Shown here piece after piece: positions 19,766 to 57,900 of a stretch of DNA of 64,000 bases; position 1 is the first letter of the stretch, and the number at the start of each line of letters is the position of its first letter. The DNA comes from Perna viridis (taxonomy: Eukaryota), in contig CM074523.1 of assembly GCA_037379345.1 (NCBI GenBank), forward strand, positions 29,294,995 through 29,358,994, written 5' to 3'. The translations under genes and the position numbers were made by a program. The notes beneath the pieces are model-generated. The model had not been told where the DNA came from, made no database searches, and saw only the letters and a program-made list of their open reading frames with translations.

Positions 19766-20060
19766 CATGCACGCACCATCTAATACACAAATTTATCTTT
19801 TTCGCCTAACAATAGTTTTGTTAACATAGTTTAAATTGAACATTAGTGACCCGTGTATGTTAAGCTTTACTTTACATTTATAAAAGCAAGTTAATGGATG
19901 TTCAGAATAAAATCTGTTCAAACATCGATGTTAAGTTTCAAAAATCGATTGTTATAAATATTGTGATGATTGGACAATATACTCGTTTTATTTTCTGTTG
20001 ATATTTTAGGTTTTAGGTCTATACTGGGGCCTCAGAGAAAGTGGAAAACTTCAGTTTAAA

Positions 20061-20352
20061 ATGAAGAAATCTGTCCTCGTTTACTTGATTCTTACAAAGG
20101 AAATAGTTTTTTGTTCTTATTTCAACACTTTTATCTGCCCATGTCCACTACGCGGTAACGTTTATTCTACAGTAACATTACCATCGAAAGTTTTTTGTGC
20201 CTATCTGTGCAATGCTGTAGAATCATGTGACTGGATTCTCTGGAATGGTGATTCTAAGATTTGTATGTTGCATTCATTTAAACAGTCAGGAGTCTATATA
20301 GACACAACAATAAATGGATTCAAATGGATTGGAAAGAAACCTTCCAGTAGTA
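20061..20352 (+). CDS. Secreted C-type lectin, coding exon 1 (signal-like N-terminus and PAN/apple-like Cys module)
   Basis: SKVFCAYLCNAVESC..WNGDSKICMLH (C-x3-C-x5-C..C pattern); phase-1 donor A|GTAAGC at 20352/3. Confidence 0.7.
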
Positions 20353-21188
20353 GTAAGCCAAAATATAAATTGTTTTATATAGATATATTGCACGAAATAC
20401 TTAGTTACATATTCCTCATAATGAATGTTAGTTTGTGTCAATCTACAGTGTAAAATATGATAATTAAGATAATATTATACTCGTTTCTGTTTCCAACTGG
20501 TTTACCGTAGTGTAATATATATATCTTGAATATCAACTCTAATAAATGAAAGTCAATTTAAAATATCAGAGCAATATATATACGCGTCAAGTTGCCGCCT
20601 AAAGTCCTCGAGTACTAAATTAAAGTGTTTAGAACGTAAGTTGAATTGACGAAATTTAACATTTATGTGAATTAAGAAATCTCCGACCACAGTAAATGCT
20701 TTTTTTGATATTTTCGATATAAGTGATAGAAGGTATTTATATTTAATAAAAAGATAAAAATCTTATAAATATTGCAAATTTCAATTAGCTTTACACGTGT
20801 TCAAGAAGTTACATGTACCTCTTATCAGCAGCATTTTAATCAAATACATATAGGATGATCTGCATCCAAACATTTATTGTACACGAGAAGCATTCTTAAA
20901 TACTGTACTCCGAACCAAAGCTATCGAAATAGGAAACCAAAAATTTATCACCAAGAGGTTCTACATGTACCATGTGCAATTCAAGAAGGAGTTTTCGTTC
21001 AAAATTTTATTTTGGAAAAAAAAAATAAATAATATAAAAAAATAATAAGGGGGTCAGACAGGTCGGACTACTGTATTGGTGAACACAAATGGTAGCTTGT
21101 TTTCCACAGGAGGGGTTACCTTGTGACCGCTGTTAACATTTCGGCATAGTTTTAACTGTTATGGAAATAAATGTTTTAAAATATTTCC

Positions 21189-22154
21189 TACGGAAGCGTA
21201 TTAGGGCCATCCTTTTTTAATTTTTTTTTCAAATTGTCGACTTAAATCTTGGAATTATCAACTTTAATCTTGGAATTATCAACTTTAATCTTGGAATTTC
21301 CAACATTAAACTTGAAAATTTCAATATTAAACTTGGAATTATCAACTTTAATCATGGACTTATCAACTTTAATCATGGAATTATCAACTTTAATCATGGA
21401 CGTATCAACTTTAATCATGGAATTATCAACATTAATCTTTGAATTTCTAATGAACGACCGACCAATGAGTGTCGGATCCAGAGCGTCAAACTTATGAGTG
21501 TCGGACTATCAATGTTATCCATGACATCATCAAACCGGAGCAAAATTCAAACTCGTCATGCAGATAAAACTATATATCACATCAATATTTTCACGACAAA
21601 AACGCCCCGTGCAGGTCCGGGTGAAGAATAGGCCTGCAGCAGCGCTAAGCTTGAAATGAAAGGCGACTAAACAGTGCTCAGAACCCTAACCGGGGGCTAG
21701 GGCGCTCTGCTTACCAGAGCAACTGGGTTGTGTGCCCCAGGTGGTGAAATGGGTACCCCTGGCGTGTTACATGCTGGGGTTGTCAGGCTATAATACTGAA
21801 AACCTGACCTCACCATGTTGGGAAAGATGCCACGTTCCTTGCACGTTAAAGAACCCTACTGTGGTATTCTCCTGGTGTAGGAACCATAGGGCTCGGCCAC
21901 TGAAGGCTAAATTGCCCTACCCTACCCACCTCTCCCTATTTCCAGTGGCAATCAAAATTTGTCGATCCGATTATCCTTTTGTCCCATTCCATTTTTCATT
22001 TCATCATTTCATGTTAATTTTATCATCTATTTCATGTTCATCGCCTGAATATATATGAAATATTCCTGCTCGGGCGTTAAAGTTGATAATTCCAAAATTA
22101 AAGTCGACTATTTGAAAAAAAAATAAAAAAGGATGGCCCTAATACACTTCAGTA
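21189..22154. mobile_element. MITE with ~75-bp TIRs and internal 21-bp tandem repeats, carrying a nested SINE-like element
   Basis: Left end TACGGAAGCGTATTAGGGCCATCC.. is inverted relative to right end ..GGATGGCCCTAATACACTTCAGTA; TTGGAATTATCAACTTTAATC repeats at 21249-21440. Confidence 0.8.
21604..22080 (+). mobile_element. SINE-like element with a structured non-tRNA head and Meta-domain signature (copy 1)
   Basis: Clear homologue of 59132-59641; GCACGTTAAAGAACCC core; GAAATATT..GGCGTTAA tail. Confidence 0.8.
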
Positions 22155-22295
22155 ATATCCTTATGGTCTTTGAATTCTTTGATTATTCAAACATGAAAAT
22201 TGGATGAGGAAAGACACTTTCATTGTAATGATAACAAACGAGTCGTTCTATTGCAAAAGTTTGTTTTGCATCCATATTTTTCTGTAAATTTTCAG

Positions 22296-22472
22296 TATGT
22301 AATCATGATGGTTATGATTATGACATTTCCACAAACACCTGTATTAGATTGGGACAATCTACTTCAGGGGTGACTTGGGTCAATGCTAGAGCCGAATGTC
22401 AGAAAGACGGAGGAGATTTAATCAGTATCTCCACACAGGAGAAGTCAGATTTTGTGTTGGATTACATTGACT
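22296..22472 (+). CDS. C-type lectin, exon 2 (N-terminal half of the CTLD)
   Basis: TTTCAG acceptor, 177 nt in phase 1-1: CNHDGYDYDISTNTCIRL..TWVNARAECQKDGGDLISISTQEKSDFV; GTAAGT donor. Confidence 0.85.
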
Positions 22473-22829
22473 GTAAGTTCAATTAAACAAAACAGATAAA
22501 ACAAGTTAGGAGACATTCTTATAGAAAAAAAATCGCTATCGGGGAATAAATGATAACCAACAGTCGTAGTACAAAGTACGCATGATGCAAAGAACCTTGA
22601 AAGAACATACAGGAATGACCAACTACAATGAACAATTAATGGTGACTTATGTGCTGTGCAAAGGTTAGCATATCCTGCTACTTAAAGTTGATCTGCCAAA
22701 TTAATGTAAATGAGTTCAATGATAAATACACCACCTAGATCAACTGTCCTGTACTACTATATATCGCATATATCGTGTACTAGGCTATAAAAATAAAAAC
22801 TACAAGGATAAATTAATGCTATATTTTGA

Positions 22830-22997
22830 TGTAACCAGGGTTGTCATGTGGTCTAGGAAGCTGGAATTAGAGCAGTAGTATTGCAACATATGCTGGAGTT
22901 TAAGTCCCACTTAGGAAATGACCAAAGATTTTCCCTACAAATTTACAGTATTAGTATCGTTTGGAAGTTTACAGGCCCTTAGATGCTTACGTATATT
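22830..22997 (+). mobile_element. Degenerate tRNA-derived SINE head/body
   Basis: A-box-like TGGTCTAGG and B-box-like GAGTTTAAGTCCC. Confidence 0.4.
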
Positions 22998-23260
22998 TCT
23001 ACCCCGGACTTGACTTTTTATGAGCAACTCGGCGGGTGTTTCTAGAAAAACAGAGGACGCTTACCCTACCCGTACACCTGGTCCATGCTCCCAGTTTTTA
23101 GTGGAGTCCGAGTTGCTCATTTAATTTTGTTACTTTGTATGTATGATTTTAGTTACTTTATGTTCTTTGTTGTGTATGTCTGTTTTCCATGTCTGGTCTT
23201 TGTCCCTGGATTACATTCTTTTGATTACCGCTATAACCTTGGTTCCCTTCATTACTCTTT
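22998..23260 (+). mobile_element. Naiad PLE family A 3' UTR fragment in lectin intron 2
   Basis: Near-identical to 19394-19652. Confidence 0.9.
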
Positions 23261-23534
23261 CCTTTCCTTTCTAAAGTCTAAAGTCAGCTTCCCATCAGCT
23301 AACTTAATAGGCATCGAATTGTCCACTCATGATGATACAGCAGAAAACAATAATATTGTTTAATTCTACAGGATAGTATACAACCATACCGATAAAGATG
23401 TTACGCTACTATAAAATAGCACATAAACTTGCATATTTAGTGAAAAGTGTATCCCAGAAAAATACAAAGTTCATTACCTTTTTTATAGATCTATATCAAT
23501 GTTTTATATGTATGCCTAATAATGACTATTTTAG

Positions 23535-23755
23535 GTTTTGACGGATTATGGATCGGGTTTCGTCAGGGAAAATGGGTTACCGGAGATTCTTTTCTGTCTT
23601 TTGTTCTAGCTAGTGTCAATAATTGGGACTCAGATTACCCGGCTGAAAGTGATCCATCTTGTGGAGCCGTCCATCCTTCGTGGGAATACAAAATTCAAGA
23701 TCAAAGCTGCAATATAAGAACTAAAACATATTTCGTTTGTGAAATCTATGTTTGA
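23535..23755 (+). CDS. C-type lectin, exon 3 (C-terminal half of the CTLD, stop)
   Basis: TTTTAG acceptor; LWIGF..W..NNWDSDYP..CGAV..IQDQSC..YFVCE. Confidence 0.85.
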
Positions 23756-24925: not shown

Positions 24926-25354
24926 GTTAGTTACTTAATACATCCAGAACGTTAACGAAATTCAACTTCGCATAGATCCTTAAAATATGTCATTCTCATT
25001 TTCCAAAAGATATCTATCGGAGACAAAACAAATATCACTCGGGTCGACCGTACAAGTTGAGAGAGGCTCAATTAAAACCAAGTATCGATAAAATGACAAA
25101 TTAAAAAGAAGAAAAAAAAATGTGGTCATAACATACTTCGTTAAATTTCACATTGTTCACAGTTTCCATAAGTGACCATTAAACCTTCCTCTTGTTGTCA
25201 TATTGATTTTAACGTGGAAAGTTTAAATTTGAAATGTAAAATATTGATGTTAATACGATGTATAATTCAACCAGATGTTACCATGAAACTGTACAATAGT
25301 GTTGAGGAAAATGACTAGTGTATGACAATATAAAATACTAATACATGGTTTAAG

Positions 25355-25516
25355 ATGACAAAGTATTTTGCACTTATATGCCTTCTGCTAGTATGTATTC
25401 GAGGAGACAAAAACCAGCAAGACGAAAATACAGATGACGGTAACGATTATAAATCAGTTCTTGACTTCTTTAAAGAATTAGACACAAGTAAAGATGGGGA
25501 AGTAACAATAGATGAG
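25355..25516 (+). CDS. ER-lumenal EF-hand protein 1, exon 1 (signal peptide and EF-hand 1)
   Basis: MTKYFALICLLLVCIRG signal; loop DTSKDGEVTIDE; phase-0 donor GAG|GTATGT. Confidence 0.85.
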
Positions 25517-26188
25517 GTATGTCTAGTCTTTTTCTGTCCATAAGGAGAACATGGCCTCAAACAAGTTTTTTTTAGTTTCATGAGTTAGGAAAAAAATCAA
25601 ATTTGAGACTTCTTCAACGAAACGATTTCTTAAAAAATAAAAACTAGAAAATACTGTTTTTTAGGCAATTTTACATAAATTGTGATTATGAAAGACACCC
25701 CAAATCATCACTCCCCCCCCCAAAAAAAAAAACTGTGATGCCACATAACACCGTACTGTAGGGGTTCTGCCCATTTAAGTGAGTTCGAAGAATGTAAAAT
25801 TTTAAGAATTTGGAACTTTGCCTCTTTGAAATTTAAAAATCTGACCAAAAAACTATGAAAATGCTTCAGTTTATGATTCGCAAAAGGAAAGTATTAGGAT
25901 ATCAACTCCAAATTACATTTCAGGTTGCACCCCGACAGGCGCGAATTCCCAGGGAGCATTCCCAAAGTAAGCCACCACCCCCCCCCCCCGCCCCCGTAAA
26001 TTATTTGAATATTTTTTGCGTAAAACAGATTTTTTTTATAAATTGTACCCTAAAATTTTTTCTTGTCGCGTTTCGTTTGGCCTTCCACTCAATTTACGCG
26101 CCCTTAACCTGAAATCCTGGATCCGCCCTACACACCTGAAACCTTTATCTGGGCCGACGTTTAATTTTTCATCGTGTTTCCATTTCAG

Positions 26189-26365
26189 GTTGAAAAATTC
26201 CTAGCAAATCGTGGCTATACAGGGAAGGATTTAGACATGGTAGTGACTGATTTCATGGAGACGTACGACCAAAACAAGGACCACGCATTAACAGTAGAAG
26301 AATTTGTAACAACGGAAGAGAAACAGCCATCGGAAAACGAGGAAACAACACACACCGAACTGTAG
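26189..26365 (+). CDS. ER-lumenal EF-hand protein 1, exon 2 (EF-hand 2 and HTEL)
   Basis: TTTCAG acceptor; loop DQNKDHALTVEE; C-terminal HTEL*; spliced product is 112 aa. Confidence 0.85.
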   Translation, partial: VEKFLANRGYTGKDLDMVVTDFMETYDQNKDHALTVEEFVTTEEKQPSENEETTHTEL

Positions 26366-26479
26366 TAGGATAATGTTTTAGAAAGGAGAAGTAGGTGACA
26401 CGTGGTACACGTAGCAACAGAACAGTGTCACATTAGTTGAAAGAATCAAAATACATTTAATTTAGAATATTCTGTACTA

Positions 26480-26955
26480 CATATCCAATAACAGACTGTG
26501 TGACTTATATATCCAATAACAGATTGTGTAACTTATATATCTAATAACAGACTGTGACTTACTGATCTAATAACAGACTGTGTGATTTATATATCAAATA
26601 ACAGACTGTGTGATTTATATATCCAATAACAGACTGTGTGATTTATATATCTAATAACAGACTTTGTGACATATATATTTCATAACAGCCTTGTGACTTA
26701 TATTTCTAATAAAAGACTTGTGACTTATGTATCTAATAACAGACTGTGTGACACATATATATACAATATATATCTGTGTGATTTATATATCCATTAACAG
26801 ACTTGTGACATATATCGAATAACAGACTGTGTGACTTATATATCTAATAACAGACTTGTGACATATATCGAATAACAGACTTTGTGACTTATATATCTAA
26901 TAACAGACTGTGTGACTTATATATTTAATAACAGACTGTGTGACTTATATATTTA
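26480..26955. repeat. ~28-bp minisatellite in the probable 3' UTR of EF-hand gene 1
   Basis: Unit ~TATATATCTAATAACAGACTGTGTGACT; AATAAA follows at ~27005. Confidence 0.9.
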
Positions 26956-27149
26956 TTCAGGTCTATAAAGGCATATCCAAATTATGTCTGTCTCTTTCTT
27001 TGATAATAAAATAAAAACAGAAAGCAAAAAAGCTTGTCTTCGTGTCCTATCGAATCAGTCAAGTTCTTATGTTATATATATACGAACACTAAACTTGATA
27101 CAGATGTGTCGTCAGTAATCAATATTGCGACCATCAAAACCACGATTGT

Positions 27150-27745
27150 TGCCTCAAAATTTTACATGAGTGTGTCTTCTATAAGTTCCCTCTGGTTTAA
27201 TTAAAACTCGCATGTTCGGCTTATTTTTAGATAATGTATAAATTGATAAAGAAAACTGTTAATGTCTCTACTTTCTATTTTTATTGAATGAAACTCTAAA
27301 ACTGATACAGACTATCTCCAAGTCCCTCACGTATGGTATATACTTGTTTCAGCCTTCACGATAGTACTAACTTCATAATAAATACCGAATGAAATTGGAC
27401 AACCATAATTTAATTTATTTATCAAAACCTCACCTCACACCAAGAGACACAGCATATATATTAAACAGTAGCTCTATAGAAATACTAAAAATAACTATCA
27501 ATATTCATAAATATTGGAATGTTGGAATCGAAGGTCAATTTAATTTAACAGAAATTATAATACATAACGTAAAAACTATAGATTAATCTGTTTTGGTGAG
27601 ATTTACACCACTGTCGCACCATGGTCATAAATTTAGTTTATATGTAATGTATATTGCATTGTACTGTTTTTGTTCATGCCATAACCATTTACTTGTAAAT
27701 GTGTTTGTGCAATAAAATTGTCTATTTATTGTCTATTGTCTACTC
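27150..27745 (+). mobile_element. Degraded LINE 3' end
   Basis: KYRMKLDNHNL-like C-terminal motif; CAATAAAA followed by a (TTGTCTA)n tail. Confidence 0.4.
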
Positions 27746-29370
27746 ACTGTGGTAACACATGCGCTTTCGATGAAATCAATATACGTGTAAGTGGGTTACT
27801 CTTTTGTTCACCAGTGTTTGACATGTTCAATATGTGTAGGAAGATAAGATCTTGCACTGGCAAATAATGTTTGTCACCCGTACATAACTAGCTCGTTGAA
27901 AACTCATCATATGTAGTTTATTATATTGCGCCGCCATTTTGATTCGACAAATGGGACATAGTTGAATTTGAACTATTTCTACTCTATAGAAACACTAACT
28001 CCTCTGGTGTTCAAATTCTACCGGATTTTTATTTGCAACATTTAGTTGATCATATTGCACCGCCAATTTTACAGGAGTTATGGGATGTTTTTGTAGGTGA
28101 CCAAGGACATATGGGTACGCTTAGCAATCTTGCTTAAATTCATTTGTAAGTCGCTGATATTGTAAGCGACTTCTTGCACTCGCAATGTCTGTACTTTATA
28201 TTCGCATACGATTTGCATAAATATGTAGTTATACGTCATGTAATGCTGCAGATACTCGCCGGGTTTACCGCCATAGCGTCATAGCTCTAGCTTCATACTG
28301 CATAAAAATGTACCTCTTAAGTATCACACACGTGTGTTCTACGTGTGTTTCTTGCTTGAACGAGAACGGGAAGTTTACATGAAATGATCAAAAATTAGCT
28401 TTGAACATTACCCAGTTTCCGATTCAGGCGCTGGGGGGTCGCTACAAGACTATATAGGTCATATACGTTAGCACCACTAGATGTTTATGAATATTCATTG
28501 CAAGTTGCTTAATCTGGTTCCTAAACTGTTTCCCCTGGTCAATATCATAAGCGATCTAAAGATTGCTACAGCATACCTTTTTATAAAACATATACACATG
28601 TCTATGCGTGTTTTTTGCTTGTATTAGAACGGAAAGTTTACATTAAAAGATAAAATTATCGGTTAGCATTGAATTTATGTAACATTACCCAGCTTCCGAT
28701 TCAAACAGGCATTCGTTGATAATATGAAGGTAATATATATCATCAGGATACCTATATCTTTATATAGCCATTGCCAGTTGTTCAATCGATGATTGAAAAC
28801 ATTCGGGTTATAACTGTTACGAAAGATTTCGCAATAATATCATGGGAACCAAGATTTTAGCGGAAGTCACCCGATTTTAGAGCATATGGCATTTGTACCA
28901 TTTCGAATGTTGAAAGTAAGCTAAAATCAGTGACAGTGAATATTTGATGATTAGCTGCTTTGAAGACTTCAGTCTTTGATTGATTGCAGTAATGCATTGG
29001 AACAATCATTTAATATTTTGCATCTATTAATGCAAATGTAGCTACAACTATAAGAATAAAAATGGAAAAATACAGACCTGTCATCACACTAGTGTCTCAT
29101 AGTAAATCTCTATTGTCATATATCTCTGTGAAATGAAGATTTTTGCATTTTCATATTTTGTTTCTGTAGAAAATCGTATTTATAAGGTTCCCTTAATTAC
29201 TCTTAAAAACTTCTTAATAAATATATGATTGTAAATGTTGATAAATTTATATCCATTTACTATCAGGATAAGACCTATGTTTAGTGGGAACTATCTAAGT
29301 CTCTGAGAACCTTTTGCAGATAACACGGTCATTTAGTTCATGTAGGTACATATACACATGTATTGTCAAA

Positions 29371-29526
29371 ATGTCAATGTGGCAGCTAGGTTGTGTCCTT
29401 GTGGTTTGTTTTTGTGTCTCCAAACTCTGTAGATCTGAGGATGTTTTGAAGGATGAAGTTCTCAGACTTGACACTATCTATAAAGAGATTGATGTGGATA
29501 AAAACAGGAAGCTGACCCGACAAGAG
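29371..29526 (+). CDS. ER-lumenal EF-hand protein 2, exon 1 (signal peptide and EF-hand 1)
   Basis: MSMWQLGCVLVVCFCVSKLCRS signal; YKEIDVDKNRKLTRQE; phase-0 donor GAG|GTAAGA. Confidence 0.85.
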
Positions 29527-30800
29527 GTAAGAACACTTGGAGAAGAACGGCTTGCTGCTGACCCGACAAGAGGTAAGAATACTTGGAGAAGAAGGTTTGT
29601 GTTTAAAATCATTATTACTTTCACCTGAATACGAAAAGATTCTTTCTGTTTATTCCTCTATAACCGAATAGCTCTGGCCTACAACTTAAGTTAGAATTTA
29701 ACCTCCTACAAGACAATTTACAATATGTCCTATTCTCTTCATATATGATGCTAAATACAGGTATATCTATCTAGTTATATTTGAAGAAAGTTAGGCTACG
29801 TGTGTTATTTGTTAGGTTAAAATGAAAGCAATAATTAAAGGGAAATCACGACCAAAAAGACATTAAACTTGGTTTCTCCATGAAGTAAAAACCCCGAAAT
29901 TAGCACTCAATAACTGCATTCAAAGACTAATCGTTTTCACACTAATTATTTTACTTAATTTATTTAGGAAACAAATTTTAAAAACAACTTTAAAGTTAAC
30001 ACTAAAAAACAACAAACCAACTTTGTAGAGATCGTGTAGGTGAATTTAGAAAAAAAGGTATAATGAGGGGGAACGGTCTACAGAACAGGTGTATACAAAA
30101 GCCTAGAAAGCCAAAAAAAAATAAAAAATAAAAGAAAAAAAAAATTTCCCATAACATTACTTTGCCAGATTTCCATTATACTGTAGTATTAAAAAATGAG
30201 GAATGTGGGGATCCATCCCCGGACCCCCTTTTTCTCTGGATCCGCCACTAGCCAGTGACTTTCTCATTATCCTGTAAATTTATACCTGAACTCTTAGATG
30301 CCATACATAACTTGAAGTTCAGACTCAAGGCCATGATATATACCAAAATCGTAGGCAATCTTTACGAAGTTACAGAATATATAACAGTCACTTCTTCCGA
30401 CAAAACTTCCGTTTGACATAGATCACCTTCGACAAATAATTACTTAGTTATATCAACACGTTTTACGCAGTCTTTTTCATTACTATACACATATAGAATT
30501 CAAATGACATTCAACATAGAAACACAAGGCGTTTTAACAAAAAGTAGACACGGCTTTCATAAATATATGTTGCAAAGTATATTTGGTATGATCATATTTC
30601 TAGCTAAACGTATCATAACTCAGACAAGCAACAGTTGGTCATCCTTGTGGCGATCAAGCTGTTTAATTATTTCAGACGGCAACCAAGAGCGGTTGTAATA
30701 GAAACACTGCATTTGGTCTTTTTCAGATTGAGGTTGACCTGACGGCAACAAAGATTGGTTATAAATCACACTTATTGCATTTTGTTATTGTTTTTTTTAG

Positions 30801-30953
30801 ATTGAAGTCTACTTGACGGCTAATAAGCTCGGTTATAAGTCAGACTCGCCACAGTTCAAAGACATCGTGGATTCCTTAATAGGAGGCCATGATACGAATG
30901 GGGACGGGCTGGTCTCCTATGACGAATTTGTTCCGAAACATGACGAACTTTAA
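30801..30953 (+). CDS. ER-lumenal EF-hand protein 2, exon 2 (EF-hand 2 and HDEL); not in the ORF track
   Basis: Poly-T/AG acceptor; IEVYLTANKLGYKSDSPQFKDIVDSLIGGHDTNGDGLVSYDEFVPKHDEL*; spliced product is 102 aa. Confidence 0.88.
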   Translation: MEVYLTANKLGYKSDSPQFKDIVDSLIGGHDTNGDGLVSYDEFVPKHDEL

Positions 30954-31479
30954 AAGACAAATATCGATACATACGCGTCAGAGGAAACAGAAATCATTTC
31001 CAGGACTGAAAACCCGATTCCTGCAAGAACAAAGGACGATTGGCTTTAAAATTAAAAACGTGTGTATATGTTTGAGTCTATCTCGCCGTCCAATGCACAG
31101 AAGACGCCATTTAAAGATCCGTGAATGATTCAGTGATATGCTTAACTTTCAACAAAAACGAAATTTTAATTTTTATAGTTGTATGGCATGGACAGAAAAA
31201 CGGATAAAAAATCCTGACAGTTTTAGCTGAAATTTGAACTACAGTTTTTTTTTTTAAATTTTAGAGCATTTGACACTTGTACACTGTTGAACACCTTTGG
31301 TGATATCTGAAAGCTTTAACTAATTTGGGTTTAGCAAATGCACAGGTGCATTTGTCGCGTTTCGTCATGTCCTTTTGTTTTACTGGTGACGGTTTAAAAT
31401 CGTTAATGATGACTACGTTCGTCGTCCGGCAATTAATAATACACGTGTCCGTTTTTTTCTGCTGTGGGTATTTTCTTTA

Positions 31480-35223: not shown

Positions 35224-35478
35224 CATGGCAAGGACGCAATTTATTATGTATTGTAATAGTATCATTGAGTTCATCAGTTTACTCTTTGTTCCAATATTTT
35301 GTTAATGGTATTTTTCACCAAACGCCTTTTCAAACTGAAGTCCGGAGATCCGCAAAATGATATTTCCGGTAATAAGTAAATAAATATAAATATATCAGGT
35401 TGTAAATTTCAAACGGTTTTGCTATTTTGAACAATATGTGACCAAGAGTACCAAAAACAAATCTTCAATATTTTTCAG

Positions 35479-36518
35479 TAAAAGCAGCATTATCATCATT
35501 GACAAAATTTGAAAAAGACACAAAGATCGACCTTCTGTATGAGTTTACTCCGAGAAGCCAGTACGCATGCACAAAATGCATGAAATACAACAGAATTCGA
35601 AATGTAGATCAAATTCATATTGGCAGTCATATTTGCTTCGAACTTGAACTAAAGTTCTACCATGCTATAGTTTCTGAAATAAACAAAATAGACAAAGGTC
35701 GTGTTCTACTTGGAATCATTCATGCTTCAAGGAAAGGTGAGCTTGCGTTGGTGAGAAAGCTTTTCGGTAGGGATTTCACGCAACACGATGTAATAGTACA
35801 AGAAACTTTACCAGAGATAGATATAAACTTGTTCAACATATACACAGTTCAATACGGCCGCCATATCTATCAAAATGAAAAAATACTGAATAGAGCCTTG
35901 TCTCTTGTGACAAGGGCGCGTGGCTTAAGAGTAACAATTGGATCACTTTCAGATGAGAAAATAAGACCGGAAGCTACCTTCAGGCATTCGAATGTACACA
36001 CAACTTCCGAGCAATTCGCATCTTGGTGTGCGACTGGGGAATGCGTCTGTCTTATTGGCAGAGAACATAAAATAGAATACGAGAAGACGCCTGATACTAT
36101 ATCGATGAAGCTGACAGTTGTTTCAGATGATGATCCTGTGAAGTGTGCCACAAAACTGCACCGGGATCATGTACTCTGCGACGCATGCTTTTTGACGGAG
36201 CTCGTGTTATTGGTAAGGGAAACAAAAAATCCAGAGATTCACTACAATCTGGTCTCACCTGACGATACAGCTTGGATAAATGAGCGAAAGATTCCGGGTG
36301 GACTTTACCGCGTAAAATATTTGCCGATGGCGAACGAAGTATTGATTAAGATCAAGCGATATAATTCCAAACTAAAGAGATTTGCATTAGTGGTGAAAAC
36401 TGAATCGTTTTGTTTTACCTTCAAGTCTGGCCGGAAGTGTGAAGTGGACACAGAAGTGAAATATAAGTTTCCTTATCCTTTCTGGAAAATCCCGGGTGAA
36501 GATGATTCCAATTTTTAA
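35479..36518 (+). CDS. LRAT/NC-domain (permuted NlpC/P60, PLAAT/FAM84-like) protein paralog A, main coding exon; catalytic Cys replaced by Ser
   Basis: IGSHICF..FYHAIV..IIHAS..ILNRALS..TSEQFASWCATG (compare NCEHFAxWCxTG). TTTTTCAG acceptor at 35478, phase 1; start codon probably in an upstream exon. Confidence 0.8.
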
Positions 36519-42010: not shown

Positions 42011-42173
42011 TATATATGGATACAAGATTATTTGAAACTGTGATCCATATTTTATATAAACAAGTAATCCCTAGAAGTATTTACGAATTAAGGTAATGGT
42101 TCAGATGTCTTATATTAATTTGTGTTCGTGATTGTAAGGTTGGTTAAATCGCCGAATTCCTATTTTCTTTCAG

Positions 42174-43153
42174 AAATGTTTCGGAAAGAAGGAAAAGTAA
42201 ACCTGTTGCACGATTTCAGTCCAAGAAGCCAGTTCTCGTGCACTAGATGCATAAAATATAGACATGTTAAACGGATTGACGAATTGCTCATTGGCAGTCA
42301 TGTTTGTTTTGAGGTGAAATTCAAGTTCTACCATGCAATTATTTCTAAAATCAGCAAAGTGAATGAAAAACGTGTTAGGCTTTGTATAATACATGCCTCC
42401 AAAAAAAGTGAGCTTGCTGTTGTTAAAAGGCTGTTTGGTAAAGAATTCGCTCAACATGATATAATTTATGAAGAATATTTACCAGAACTAGACCTTACAA
42501 AGAGCAGTATTTATATCGTTCAATATGACCGCTGTGTCTGCAAAAATGAAATGGTGCTCAAGAGAGCCATGTCACAGATTCATAGATCAGGAAATAGAGT
42601 TCAAAGGTCTTATGGGTCTATCGCATACGAACGGTTTCAATCAGAACCAGAAAATATAGATGAAACATCAGAGCGGTTTGCATCATGGTGTGTAACTGGA
42701 GAATGTGTTTCCTTAAATACTAGAAGTAGTAGAGATTGTATAGAATACATAAAAAGTCCTGCTGATATTACAATGCATTTGAGGGTTATTTCAGACAAAG
42801 ATCCCATTGAAAGTGCTACAAAACTTCATCAACAGCGATTGCTATGCGACACGTGCTTTTTGACGGAAGTCGTTCGCTTAGTAAATTCACAAGACACACC
42901 AGAAACCAAATACTTTCTACACAAATTAAACGCTGCTTGGGTACAGGACCGACAAACTCCGAATGGTCTATATCGCGTTAAATACAAACCCCAAATTGAG
43001 GAAGTTCTTATAAAAATAAAACGCTACAACGCAAAAACCAAGAGACGAGCATCTCAAATAGAGAAAGAAACATTTGTATTTACTTTGGTTCCAGGTCGTA
43101 AATGTCAAGTCACAGATACAGAAATACTTTACACATGCTTTTGTCCACTTTGA
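42174..43153 (+). CDS. LRAT/NC-domain protein paralog B, main coding exon; catalytic Cys replaced by Ser
   Basis: Colinear with paralog A: IGSHVCF..FYHAII..IIHAS..TSERFASWCVTG. CTTTCAG acceptor at 42173, ATG at 42176. Confidence 0.8.
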
Positions 43154-53625: not shown

Positions 53626-53847
<222 letters not shown>

Positions 53848-54274
53848 TTAAAAGCAGACCAAAACTATTTCAGTACCACCATTTTCCAGCAGTATATTAG
53901 TGGCTTTAGCACATATAAAACAAAGTACAAGAAGGAATTGTACTCATAAATCATATTTTATTTCACTTCTTTCGATGTCAGTATCTTTCAAAAAAGAAGC
54001 CTTAATTGGTGGTATTAATACCACTTTTATAAAGTGGTCATGTACCTGTATGTACATTTGTATGTAGTTTTCATCCTTTAACTGTTTTTATTTATTAGTG
54101 TCTTACATGAAGACTGCACATGTGTGTGCAAAGAAAGACATTTAATCATGCTCAAGTTTCAGTCAGACAGCAATGTGGTGTTCCCCTTGTAAACTTCTAT
54201 TATCAAACCTTACTATGATTCAGTAAGGAAGATAACATCACTACTGATTATAACATCAGTTTCTATACACTTAC

Positions 54275-54965
54275 CTGTATGTGTTCTAAGATGTGCTTTC
54301 AGGTGCGAACTTTTGGTATAAACTTTTTTACATCCTGTATAAGGACATTTGTGGTTCCTTCTACGCATATCGGGACTAACATCTGTACGAAGTTTGCCAT
54401 TCAGTGCCACAGGAGGGCGCTGTTGAAGTGGTTGAGCTGTGTATGGTCTAGGTCTGCCATTGGGACTTGTGATATAGTAGCGTTGATGACGCACCATTTC
54501 AGTTTGAGGTATTCGTACGGCCACTGTCGTTGTACGACCTGGCTGAGCAACAAGTCTTAGTGCAAATGGGTCATTACATGAAGAAGATTTAGGAATTATG
54601 GGAGATGATGGCGGATCACTATTATTACTATCCCATGAAACACCACTTGACGCTGAACTAAAACTATGTAAACTAATCCGATCTGAACATGGATCGTTTA
54701 AATTTAAATGTGCCAGTTGTTGAAGTCTATCCTCCGTCTCTGTTTCATTGCCATCATCGTCATCATCACTATCTTCATCAGAAACATCATACTCATCAAA
54801 GTCTGTCAATCGTAAGCCATTTTCGTCTTTCATTTCTACACGAATGCTGTCAGGTGCTGCATACTTTGAATCACAATTTTCATCCCAAGGATGTGAATCC
54901 TTTAACTTTTTGTAGGATGTTAATTTTGGTTCACTTTTCAAATACCTTTCCATCTCCAGACAATT
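54275..54965 (-). CDS. KLF7: Krueppel-like factor 6/7 (luna), internal exon (acidic/Ser-rich region and zinc finger 1); first exon not found in the window
   Basis: [14 protein letters not shown] (KLF6/7-type motif) and [31 protein letters not shown]; TTTCAG acceptor and G|GTAAG donor. Confidence 0.92.
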
Positions 54966-57900
54966 CTGAAACAAATAAAAGAAACTGAATAAAGATTTGT
55001 TGTAAATAAATATATAAATCCTTTAGACATAATGTTATTTATGCATATTTTACTGTGTAAAGTGTCACCCATGTCAATATTCAGGTTTTAGCTAAAAATT
55101 TTATAGACTGTAGTCACATGTAAACCACTACCCTTGGTTGAGCAAATTTCCTTTTTATGTAATTCCTTTTATTCAGCAAAAGTAAATAAAGACAAAAAAA
55201 AAAAAAAAGAAAAAAGAAAGAGAGCTTTGAAATTTTTACTTCAATCTTGATTTCATTGTTTTCTCTCATCAAGATTCAGCACATAGTTCTATAAACAGCA
55301 AGACAAAGATATCAGGATTATATGTGCAATATAAGTTGGTTCATATACACACTTGTAAAATGGGATTTATTCTGTTGGGGTGTAAAGAAATTAAAACATA
55401 AATAAAATACATAAAGTACTACTGTGTCTTACAATCAGGTAAAATGTGTATAAGGTGTGGCATATGAAGAAAAAATTGTAACATTTTATCAAATTTTCCA
55501 AGCATTTATACCACATAATAGTCAACTGCCAGAAATAACTATCAAAGTGTTTGTAAAGTTTGCCTTTTTAAGATAATGAAAGTTGAAATACACAAATTGA
55601 AAATGGTGGGAAAAACATTCCTGCACTTTTCCCTATATCAGCAGTCAAAAATATCACAGACACTATAGGATAAATTAAAATAGCTTTTCAGTTGTTTCCT
55701 ACTGAATACTGAGAAAAATCATCGCCTGATTCTTACACAGATTGGTACCAGACTAAAACATGACAAAAATAACTGTGTTTCCTTACAGTGAAACAGATAG
55801 AAGACTGGTACCTGTAGTTTAAAAAAAAAAGTATCTAAGGATTGCAAAAAAAAAAAAAAAAAAAATTCCAAGTATATATGTAAGCCTCTTCAACTGTAAG
55901 CTACAGACCATGAAAGACTAATACTATTATAGGAATCTTAACTCACATCAAAAATCAGTATTGTGTCTTCAGGGTAATACAGAAAGAAGCAAGTCAGATG
56001 GCATGTAATAGGATCTCATCAAAATTCATCTTTCATATGTAATTTAATTTTCTCTGCTAGAAGGACCTTGTAATATAATACTTAGAACATGAAATAAAGA
56101 AATTTTAATGAGATTTTAAGAGTAGCAATGATCTTTGAACAATATGGCAATGACCCAGTTTTCAAGTTTATATAAAAGAATTTTTAGAGAAATCGAACTA
56201 CATTTATTGTGAGCAGGCTGAACTCAGAACATGTATACCCTTAAGTTGATATATACACTTGATAATATTTTTTTTCTTTCAACATTTATGTACATATACA
56301 ATATAAAGAATGATATGAAATCTTCATATAAATTTTCATCAGAATCTAATAAACATTTAAAAGGAGTTGTCCACCCTTTGAACAGATTGGGATATATCAC
56401 ATTCAAAAGACAGGAGCACGAACGGAGTTAGAAATTAGACTAATATGTCTCTTTTAGAATGTATATGATTTATTCCAAATCAGAAGATCTAAGAATTGGT
56501 ATAATTATTTATTACTTTTTCTTTTTTTCCTAGAGATTAAAGACTTTTTGGATCTGACTAAATACCATTAAAACTTCAGACAAAATTCCATCATGTTTAT
56601 ACTTCAGTCATCAGTATACAGCCTTGTAATGACTAGTTGTTTTATGATCAGGTCGTGTTTCAAAGGAAGCTAAAGGACTAATGAATGAGAGAAAAAACTG
56701 ATATTACAGATTATAAAGTAGGCTTCAAATATTGTTCACAAAAAACCTCATCATCAATGATCTATAATCAGTTGTTCCACATCTTTGTAATAAGCATACT
56801 ATAATTTTGTTCCAAGAAAATATTTATGATGTTACAGCAAAAAGACAAAATATGACAATTTTTTTTATGCATCATTATAAAACCAAGACAAGATAGACTG
56901 ACTTGGAATAACTGGTATCACACACATAATAAATATGTTTAAATATGTTATGTAAAAACAAATATCTCATGTTTTGAAGAAACATTCATTACAGCTTACT
57001 GTATCTTCATTACCTGCCATGCCAGACTTTTAAGTGAAGGCAAAAACTAACAAAAATCATAACTTTCAAGAATTCAATAACTGCTTGATCATAGGTGATA
57101 CTGCTGGCCATTGACAAAGAGTGTGATAAGTGTAACCATATTTGTGTTGAATCATAACTTCTTAGTTTTTTTAAAATGCCTGCTTATGAAGTATGGAGAA
57201 GTCTTGACCAACTTCATATCTAATTTAAGATGCATGGTTTATAGAATTAACAAAATTTATGGAAGACCTTCAGAAACAAATAACATCACTGATCCAGGGA
57301 AGTACATAATAACATAACAAACTAGTTCAAGGATTAAGAATGGATTTAAGCACAACATATATATATATATATTGATGATTGAATAAAAATCAAACCATCT
57401 GGAGCAAAAAACCTACTGATAACATACTACACCTAACTTCTACTATTTTATCATTAGAAAAGAAACCTTACAAGAAAATCTGTCACCACCACCATTCTAC
57501 TTTGATTGAGGTTACCCACGCAGTAAGTAAACTATGTATATGATTATAACACCTACACTGGCATGTGAATGGCAAAATCACATGAGACGTAATGGAAAAA
57601 TAAAACAACAAAAAATAACATTATTTTAAAACCACTCAATAAATAAATAATTCAATACTCCGAAAACAAAGGAGGGTGTGTGGGTAAAAGGACCAGACTT
57701 AAAGCATGAAACTTAAAACCCCACTATCATTAAAATACATATGACCTTTTAACACTTAGTAATCCTGAAAAAAACAACATGATCTCTTACATAGCATTAT
57801 AAGGTTATAATGATTGAAATATGTTACATGTCATAGACCAAAGTTTACCTTGTAAATCTATACTGTCATTCCAGATAATAGTGTCTATTTATTACCAGCT

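What the first reader, a model, noticed from the sequence alone, without database searches (positions are those of the whole stretch)
25355..30953. Tandem pair of ER-lumenal two-EF-hand mini-proteins resembling FKBP7/14 without the PPIase domain
Seen: two diverged 2-exon genes (112 and 102 aa), each with a signal peptide, an EF-hand, a phase-0 intron right after Glu12 of that EF-hand, a second EF-hand and an ER-retrieval signal (HTEL, HDEL). Known: ER FKBP7/14 proteins end in a very similar module (human FKBP14 ..FQEMDLNDDWKLSKDE-VKAYL..DKDGFISAREFTYKHDEL versus YKEIDVDKNRKLTRQE-IEVYL..DTNGDGLVSYDEFVPKHDEL here); MCFD2 has two EF-hands but no KDEL-type signal; CREC proteins have many more EF-hands. 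Inference: a lineage-specific family of isomerase-less ER Ca2+-binding proteins, possibly Ca2+ buffers or dimerisation partners/regulators of FKBP14, which could matter in secretory or shell-forming tissue.
Basis: partly seen in the sequence, partly recalled or inferred. Interest (0 to 1): 0.72.

Follow-up and report, generated by a model that had tools for sequence, protein, structure and literature searches.

The report
Mussel isomerase-less FKBP14-like calcium proteins
Two small spliced genes, probably of a mussel, encode a signal peptide, two calcium-binding EF-hand motifs and an ER-retrieval tail but no enzyme domain; they belong to a family of at least seven genes shared with Mytilus that likely arose from the ER folding enzyme FKBP7/14 by losing its isomerase, and would let the still unexplained role of that enzyme's calcium-binding tail be studied on its own.

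Summary
Both two-exon genes are real: the predicted introns are spliced in 6 of 8 (gene 1) and 2 of 8 (gene 2) runs laid, and no FKBP-domain exon was found within megabases. They are two of at least seven such genes in this genome, with orthologues in three Mytilus species; RefSeq names some 'FKBP14-like' or 'FKBP10-like' although Pfam finds no isomerase domain in them. All seven share a phase-0 intron after Glu12 of EF-hand 1 with the genome's three FKBP-EF genes; the MCFD2-like gene and 30 control EF loops lack it. Sequence scores also favour FKBP7/14, but the tree cannot exclude CREC or MCFD2. Calcium ligands and an xxEL end are kept in all 13 members compared, and paralogues show dN/dS near 0.2. 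Best reading: ER-retained calcium-binding proteins made of the FKBP7/14 tail alone, most likely calcium-dependent partners of ER chaperones (untested); a plain calcium buffer is the main rival. Nothing here supports a shell role or FKBP14 binding. Nine literature searches and three look-ups in this scan found no description. A new variant of a known kind, of moderate interest.

The parts
25291..25354 (+). Gene 1 5' untranslated stretch; holds in-frame stops at 25316 and 25331
   Evidence: Five spliced contigs begin at 25291-25315 with all their letters laid; stops. Contigs cannot prove a start.
25355..25516 (+). Gene 1 coding exon 1: predicted signal peptide, acidic spacer, EF-hand 1 up to Glu12
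25517..26188 (+). Gene 1 intron, 672 bases, GT..AG, phase 0
   Evidence: Joint in 6 of 8 runs laid
26189..26365 (+). Gene 1 coding exon 2: linker, EF-hand 2, 12-residue acidic insert, HTEL stop
26366..27480 (+). Gene 1 3' UTR with a 28-bp minisatellite (26481-26952, 17 copies) and ATTAAA at 27460
   Evidence: Contigs of X1, X10, X12 and X15 end at 27480
29371..29526 (+). Gene 2 coding exon 1: predicted signal peptide, EF-hand 1 up to Glu12
   Evidence: 48% identical to the Mytilus galloprovincialis protein P0309 over the matched part
29527..30800 (+). Gene 2 intron, 1274 bases, GT..AG, phase 0; holds an out-of-frame duplicate of the donor (about 29557-29593) and a decayed copy of the acceptor and exon 2 start (about 30720-30771)
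   Evidence: Joint in X1 and X5 uses the first donor and the last acceptor; duplicates
30801..30953 (+). Gene 2 coding exon 2: linker, EF-hand 2, HDEL stop
   Evidence: 66% identical to P0309
30954..31062 (+). Gene 2 3' UTR with ATTAAA at 31051
   Evidence: X1 contig ends at 31062

Best explanation
The two genes are spliced, transcribed members of a family of at least seven small two-EF-hand genes that likely arose from a duplicated FKBP7/14 gene by loss of the isomerase exons, and whose products are predicted to stay in the ER lumen, bind two calcium ions and likely act as calcium-dependent partners of the ER folding machinery. Shown: gene structure, splicing, family size, shared intron, absence of an FKBP domain, conserved ligands and xxEL ends. 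Inferred: signal-peptide cleavage gives a roughly 9-11 kDa acidic EF-hand pair that the KDEL receptor retrieves (about 0.85). Descent from FKBP7/14 (about 0.85). A calcium-switched interaction with a chaperone, BiP being the best candidate, in secretory cell types that differ between paralogues (about 0.4, untested).
For: Splicing and no upstream coding exon for gene 1. None of the 20 FKBP_C matches in the genome lies within 9 Mb of any of the seven genes; host FKBP-domain exons give no tblastn hit below E 0.6 in the window plus 20 kb upstream. The same phase-0 intron after EF1 Glu12 is in 7 of 7 family genes and 3 of 3 host FKBP-EF genes. Four unnamed FKBP14-type last-exon ORFs run in through a Gln directly before the post-Glu12 residue (P0138, P0140, P0143, P0144 against spliced P0313). 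It is absent at 0 of 30 control EF loops, and the host MCFD2-like gene has its intron 10 residues later, in phase 1. Mean local score of the seven against host modules: FKBP-A 104, FKBP-B 87, calmodulin-like 51-73, CREC 51-71, FKBP-C 54, MCFD2-like 43. hhalign gives 98.9% against an FKBP-EF protein and 92.6% against calumenin. Human FKBP14 (4MSP) matches profile positions 6-72 up to the C-terminus (E 9e-11, rank 8) and is Foldseek rank 1 for a homologue's model. The family is one side of a branch in two trees (75/81 and 80/91). Ligand positions 1, 3, 5 and 12 fit in 26 of 26 loops and 13 of 13 members end in xxEL. dN/dS is about 0.2 for the one unsaturated paralogue pair. HTEL is described as an ER-retrieval signal (PMC11845761, passage). 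FKBP7 modulates BiP in a calcium-dependent way (10.64898/2026.01.18.700172, passage). The two genes are found in different runs: X5 holds only gene 2; X10, X12, X15 only gene 1.
Against: The tree does not resolve the origin: AU tests reject neither family+FKBP (p 0.27, 0.45), family+CREC (0.39, 0.37) nor family+MCFD2 (0.38), and family support is not starred. Gene 1 alone scores no better against FKBPs (78-81) than against calmodulin-like pairs (77-83). Foldseek E-values are weak (best 3e-3), and VIA-align ties MCFD2 (Z 9.7) with FKBP14 (Z 9.5) and many others. Seven calmodulin-like or KChIP-type chains outrank 4MSP. GAG followed by GT is a common intron context (recalled), so some convergence is possible. 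The non-host FKBP sequences were found with family queries, which biases those scores. No binding, location or calcium data exist. The BiP link rests on mammalian FKBP7, where the isomerase activity also takes part (titles in the reference list). The 5' end of gene 2 is not closed: one contig starts at an AG at 29345 and another has 30 unlaid letters before 29361.
Confidence: 0.55

Rival explanations
1. Same origin and location, but the proteins are simple lumenal calcium buffers or shuttles, an ER counterpart of the two-EF-hand buffer calbindin-D9k (analogy recalled), with no specific protein partner.
For: All ligand positions are kept while linkers and surfaces diverge widely. The proteins are acidic (pI 4.2 and 4.8), and gene 1 has gained extra acidic stretches. 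For FKBP22 the EF-hands have no known function beyond binding calcium (PMC6965642, passage).
Against: Two sites per protein is low capacity next to the host's CREC genes. Seven old paralogues with one-to-one Mytilus orthologues and different expression suggest specialisation. Both points are inference.
Confidence: 0.3
2. [quoted passage not shown]
For: Shared ancestry and compartment with three host FKBP-EF genes. An EF-hand-mediated dimer in the FKBP22 crystal is recalled only; the paper was not held.
Against: EF-hand disruption changes neither isomerase nor chaperone activity of FKBP22 in vitro (PMC6965642, PMC10607241, passages), so such a partner would have little known activity to regulate.
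Confidence: 0.1
3. They are secreted biomineralisation proteins like the EF-hand shell matrix proteins (SMP5, calconectin type).
For: Signal peptide plus acidic EF-hand pair is the layout of abalone SMP5 (PMC10741955, passages). xxEL proteins can leak to the surface (PMC11845761).
Against: 13 of 13 members keep an xxEL end. No HDEL, RDEL or HTEL string was found in the four supplements of a Perna viridis shell proteome; its one signal-peptide EF-hand protein checked is unrelated. Whether that is the host species is not established.
Confidence: 0.07
4. They derive from MCFD2 or from the last two EF-hands of a CREC protein, and act as cargo-receptor adaptors or CREC-like chaperones.
For: Same size class and fold as MCFD2 (Z 9.7, rmsd 2.0, 67 aligned). 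AU tests do not reject either grouping. CREC proteins end in HDEF, HDEL or similar.
Against: Intron position differs in the host MCFD2-like gene and in all control loops. Scores are lowest for MCFD2 and lower for CREC. CREC tails after the last EF loop are about 25 residues against 7-9 in 12 of 13 members. An xxEL end opposes ER export.
Confidence: 0.08
5. They are decaying fragments or mis-read 3' halves of an FKBP gene.
For: Broken copies of gene 1 lie 33 and 68 kb upstream; gene 1 is a long branch.
Against: Intact frames, own hydrophobic N-termini, spliced transcripts, full-length orthologues in three Mytilus species, and dN/dS about 0.2 among paralogues.
Confidence: 0.02

Closest known systems
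FKBP7 (FKBP23) / FKBP14 (FKBP22) ER isomerases, PDB 4MSP
   Same: Signal peptide, two C-terminal EF-hands with a long linker, a short F-x-x-(P)-[KR]-HDEL-type tail, and the intron after EF1 Glu12 in the host genes.
   Different: No FKBP domain at all; 91-112 aa instead of about 210; expanded to at least seven genes.
Automatic Mytilus gene models: XP_063412718.1 'FKBP14-like' (109 aa), XP_071148414.1 'FKBP10-like' (96 aa), XP_063412302.1 '16 kDa calcium-binding protein-like', VDI02295.1, VDI38326.1, VDI52734.1, VDI52735.1
   Same: Members of the same family; VDI02295.1 and XP_063412718.1 are orthologues of gene 2.
   Different: Only pipeline names; 7 of 7 scanned carry no FKBP Pfam domain. No description as a family turned up.
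MCFD2 (LMAN1 cargo-receptor subunit), PDB 3LCP
   Same: Small lumenal protein with signal peptide and two EF-hands; same fold.
   Different: The host MCFD2-like gene (label from a recalled motif) has another intron position, a longer linker, no xxEL end and the lowest score.
CREC family (calumenin, reticulocalbin, Cab45)
   Same: Secretory-pathway EF-hand proteins with HDEF/HDEL-type ends.
   Different: Many EF-hands, about 320 aa, longer tail, no intron after Glu12 in the host loops examined.
Mytimycin precursor C-terminal EF-hand region; abalone SMP5
   Same: Mollusc secretory-pathway proteins with an acidic EF-hand pair (PMC8004829, PMC10741955).
   Different: The 16 mytimycin rows seen have no xxEL end and carry a cysteine-rich peptide; they did not appear among the listed hits. 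SMP5 is described as secreted, 134 aa, with three motifs.

Membership tests
FKBP7/14 ER isomerases | FKBP-type isomerase domain (PF00254) | tested here: not met
   None in the exons, in 7 of 7 Mytilus members, or near the loci
FKBP7/14 ER isomerases | N-terminal signal peptide | tested here: met
   Hydrophobic core in 7 of 7 host genes (maximum 2.3-3.7); heuristic only, no predictor
FKBP7/14 ER isomerases | Two C-terminal EF-hands with intact ligands | tested here: met
FKBP7/14 ER isomerases | C-terminal KDEL-type motif | tested here: met
   HTEL and HDEL here; xxEL in 13 of 13
FKBP7/14 ER isomerases | Phase-0 intron after EF1 Glu12 | tested here: met
   7 of 7 family genes, 3 of 3 host FKBP-EF genes, 0 of 30 control loops; read from genomic DNA except for the two window genes
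FKBP7/14 ER isomerases | EF module forms one clade with FKBP7/14 modules | tested here: inconclusive
   AU p 0.27 and 0.45; alternatives not rejected either
FKBP7/14 ER isomerases | ER-lumenal location and calcium binding | not testable with these tools
   Needs bench work
MCFD2 | Two EF-hands without a KDEL-type end, and MCFD2 gene structure | tested here: not met
MCFD2 | Binding to LMAN1 | not tested
   No LMAN1 sequence was fetched
CREC | Five or more EF-hands in about 320 aa | tested here: not met
   Two EF-hands, 91-112 aa
Secreted EF-hand shell matrix proteins | No retrieval signal; present in shell extracts | tested here: not met
   xxEL ends; no such strings in one mussel shell proteome, whose species may not be the host

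The most novel reading that the evidence does not exclude
Mussels have freed the calcium-binding tail of FKBP7/14 as a stand-alone, tissue-diversified family of ER microproteins that switch BiP or FKBP14 activity with lumenal calcium in their heavily secreting glands, revealing an isomerase-independent function of a module whose role is still open in the human Ehlers-Danlos protein FKBP14.
Probability: 0.25. Interest if true: 0.7.

Novelty: new variant of a known kind. Interest (0 to 1): 0.42.

Why it matters
The EF-hand pair of human FKBP14 has no known job beyond binding calcium, and breaking it leaves isomerase and chaperone activity intact in vitro (PMC6965642, PMC10607241). A family that keeps only this module, intact and under purifying selection across mussel genera, indicates that the module can have a function of its own, and supplies natural 10-kDa versions to test it. 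It also corrects databases, which name these proteins as isomerases. The limits: domain loss with lineage expansion is common in bivalves, and no function is shown here.

Tried and rejected
Homodimer prediction for the gene 2 orthologue P0309 (residues 30-109, two copies, calcium): no answer, scores 0.03 and 0.11 against a mark of 0.32; not evidence either way. A complex with host FKBP14 or BiP was not modelled. Profile searches for longer proteins and of the 50% representatives were swamped by many-EF-hand proteins and gave no family members among the rows listed. The range outside Mytilidae is therefore open; the two useful searches (33 of 33 and 120 of 507 hits listed) named full-length members only from Mytilus. 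ESM Atlas with two homologues gave generic EF-hand clusters only. No indexed run was on record as RNA; absence of cover in a contig run is weak. Mytimycin's EF region was considered as a member and rejected. Unigene15208 of a shell proteome, with a matching signal-peptide length, proved unrelated. Fold comparison cannot separate EF-hand families. Alignment A4 stacked exon 1 on EF-hand 2 and was not used. Three look-ups in this scan's notes gave nothing on this family. The FKBP22 structure paper and the 2014 substrate paper were not available, so the crystal dimer is recalled only.
Full report
Observation. The window holds two genes on the + strand as described. Gene 1 has coding exons 25355-25516 and 26189-26365 (112 aa, HTEL); gene 2 has 29371-29526 and 30801-30953 (102 aa, HDEL). 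Both introns are GT..AG and phase 0, directly after Glu12 of EF loop 1. All four exons hit Pfam EF-hand models below the curated cut-offs. The two exon patterns occur twice each in the window and in 0 of 200 shuffles. The proteins are distant paralogues (score 79; maximum 54 in 2000 shuffles).

Expression. Eight runs were laid, of 24 listed. The gene 1 joint is in 6 of 8: four stranded raw reads in X22 and contigs in X1, X7, X10, X12 and X15, from five studies. The gene 2 joint is in 2 of 8 (X1, X5). X5 covers gene 2 but not gene 1; X10, X12 and X15 the reverse; the two raw-read runs have no depth in the 29421-29821 bin of gene 2. The contig runs are only guessed to be RNA, and their tissues are not given. 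The five gene 1 contigs start at 25291-25315, upstream of an in-frame stop at 25331, with every letter laid. For gene 2 the 5' end stays open: the X1 contig starts at an AG at 29345, and one short X5 contig has 30 unlaid letters before 29361. Contig 3' ends follow ATTAAA signals at 27460 and 31051.

No isomerase domain. None of the 20 FKBP_C matches in the genome is near the window or the other family loci; the closest on this contig is over 11 Mb from the window (a lower bound). Host FKBP-domain exons give no tblastn hit below E 0.6 in the window and 20 kb upstream.

A family. Searches of the own genome and reading of the loci gave five more intact genes: one on C7 (7.93 Mb), one on C13 (26.49 Mb) and three in tandem on C13 (26.55-26.56 Mb). 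They are 91-98 aa, with a hydrophobic N-terminus, two EF loops, the same intron and KDEL, HDEL or RDEL ends. Their splicing was read from DNA only. Two broken copies of the gene 1 start lie 33 and 68 kb upstream. Protein searches found full-length members in Mytilus galloprovincialis, M. trossulus and M. edulis. P0309/P0414 pair with gene 2, P0308/P0417 with the C7 gene, P0125/P0297 with the tandem cluster, and P0126 weakly with gene 1. The host is thus probably a mytilid outside Mytilus (inference from 60-66% exon identity). RefSeq names two members 'FKBP14-like' and 'FKBP10-like', yet Pfam finds no FKBP domain in 7 of 7 scanned. The range beyond mussels is untested, since two of the four database searches were swamped.

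Origin. Three host FKBP genes with EF-hands (C13 at 17.76, 1.05 and 11.02 Mb) have the same phase-0 intron after EF1 Glu12. Four unnamed last-exon ORFs of vertebrate FKBP14 type (label recalled) begin at the same place. As controls, the host MCFD2-like gene (found with a recalled motif) has a phase-1 intron 10 residues later and no xxEL end. In 20 control loci (CREC and other EF-hand hits), 0 of 30 uninterrupted EF loops are followed by an intron; three are followed by a GT codon but read on in homologous sequence. Against host modules the seven score on average 104 and 87 (FKBP-A, B), 54 (divergent FKBP-C), 51-73 (calmodulin-like), 51-71 (CREC) and 43 (MCFD2-like); FKBP-A and B stay on top without the last four residues (95, 77). 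Gene 1 alone is not discriminated. hhalign gives 98.9% to an FKBP-EF protein and 92.6% to calumenin. In the PDB, FKBP14 4MSP ranks eighth by sequence and matches up to the C-terminus. It ranks first by Foldseek for an AlphaFold model of the homologue P0126 (pLDDT about 90 over the EF pair), but VIA-align ties many EF-hand proteins, including MCFD2. Two trees (37 rows; then 33 rows after dropping six long or redundant rows and adding two host CREC rows) put the family on one side of a branch (75/81, 80/91), next to FKBP modules on short branches. AU tests reject no alternative. Descent from FKBP7/14 therefore rests on gene structure, tail and scores, not on the tree.

Constraint. Positions 1, 3, 5 and 12 fit the EF-hand pattern in 26 of 26 loops of 13 members; the pattern located the loops, but no member lacked either. 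All 13 end in xxEL. Over the EF region of the tandem trio, dN/dS is 0.26/1.21 for one pair; synonymous sites are saturated in the other two, with pN about 0.3.

How it likely works. Inferred steps: entry into the ER, signal cleavage, retrieval by the KDEL receptor (HTEL is described as a retrieval signal for human CES2; PMC11845761, passage), and binding of two calcium ions. The parent module's role is largely unknown, and EF-hand disruption does not change FKBP22's isomerase or chaperone activity (PMC6965642 and PMC10607241, passages). FKBP7 is reported to modulate BiP in a calcium-dependent way (10.64898/2026.01.18.700172, passage; the primary papers seen as titles only). I therefore favour a calcium-dependent chaperone partner (about 0.4) over a plain buffer (0.3), an FKBP14 decoy (0.1), an MCFD2- or CREC-like role (0.08) and a secreted shell protein (0.07). 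For the shell idea, no HDEL, RDEL or HTEL string occurs in the four supplements of a Perna viridis shell proteome (PMC6641155; passages and supplement searches); whether that is the host is not established.

Prior description. Nine full-text searches listed no paper on such a family; most subscription papers are not searched. Passages were also read in PMC8004829 (plus supplement part 1 of 9), PMC10741955, PMC12668782, PMC5549309, PMC2447506, PMC5870485 and PMC6290070, without a mention in those passages. Earlier notes of this scan hold nothing similar.

Verdict. Real, expressed and conserved across mussel genera. Not an FKBP by membership, since the defining domain is missing, but most likely its liberated EF-hand module. 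New variant of a known kind; interest 0.42.

Noticed in passing
window 35442-36518 and 42119-43153 (+): Two single-ORF paralogues of about 350 aa, 51% identical, with no Pfam match. Their motifs recall an LRAT/NlpC-P60-like domain with Ser in place of the catalytic Cys (recalled, untested).
   Followed up: no
G000:C13:29286369-29286624 and 29251850-29252105: Two broken copies of the gene 1 upstream region and late exon 1, about 34.5 kb apart, each lacking about 370 bases that hold the start codon and signal peptide.
   Followed up: partly
window 29557-29593 and about 30720-30771: The gene 2 intron carries a duplicate of its donor and a decayed duplicate of its acceptor; the spliced contigs seen use neither. 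X5 also holds a low-depth intron-retaining contig.
   Followed up: partly
window 26481-26952: A 28-bp minisatellite of 17 copies lies in the transcribed 3' UTR of gene 1.
   Followed up: partly
L036 (G000:C13:11022324-11023934, +): A third, divergent host FKBP gene with two EF-hands that ends in KQEL.
   Followed up: partly
window 53626-55022 (-), 20010-23755 (+), 3675-4574 (-): A Kruppel-like C2H2 zinc-finger gene; exons with PAN and C-type lectin domains; an ORF with a DZIP3-like HEPN domain.
   Followed up: no
ESM Atlas hits for P0126 and P0309: The nearest clusters (0.91-0.93) are 101-109 aa EF-hand proteins whose few labelled members are viral; shared features are under the tool's 170 mark, so a lead only.
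   Followed up: no
P0126 and P0414 (Mytilus trossulus): The likely orthologues of gene 1 and gene 2 both lie on a contig of 63,222,996 bases, so the pair may be linked there too; positions are not available.
   Followed up: no
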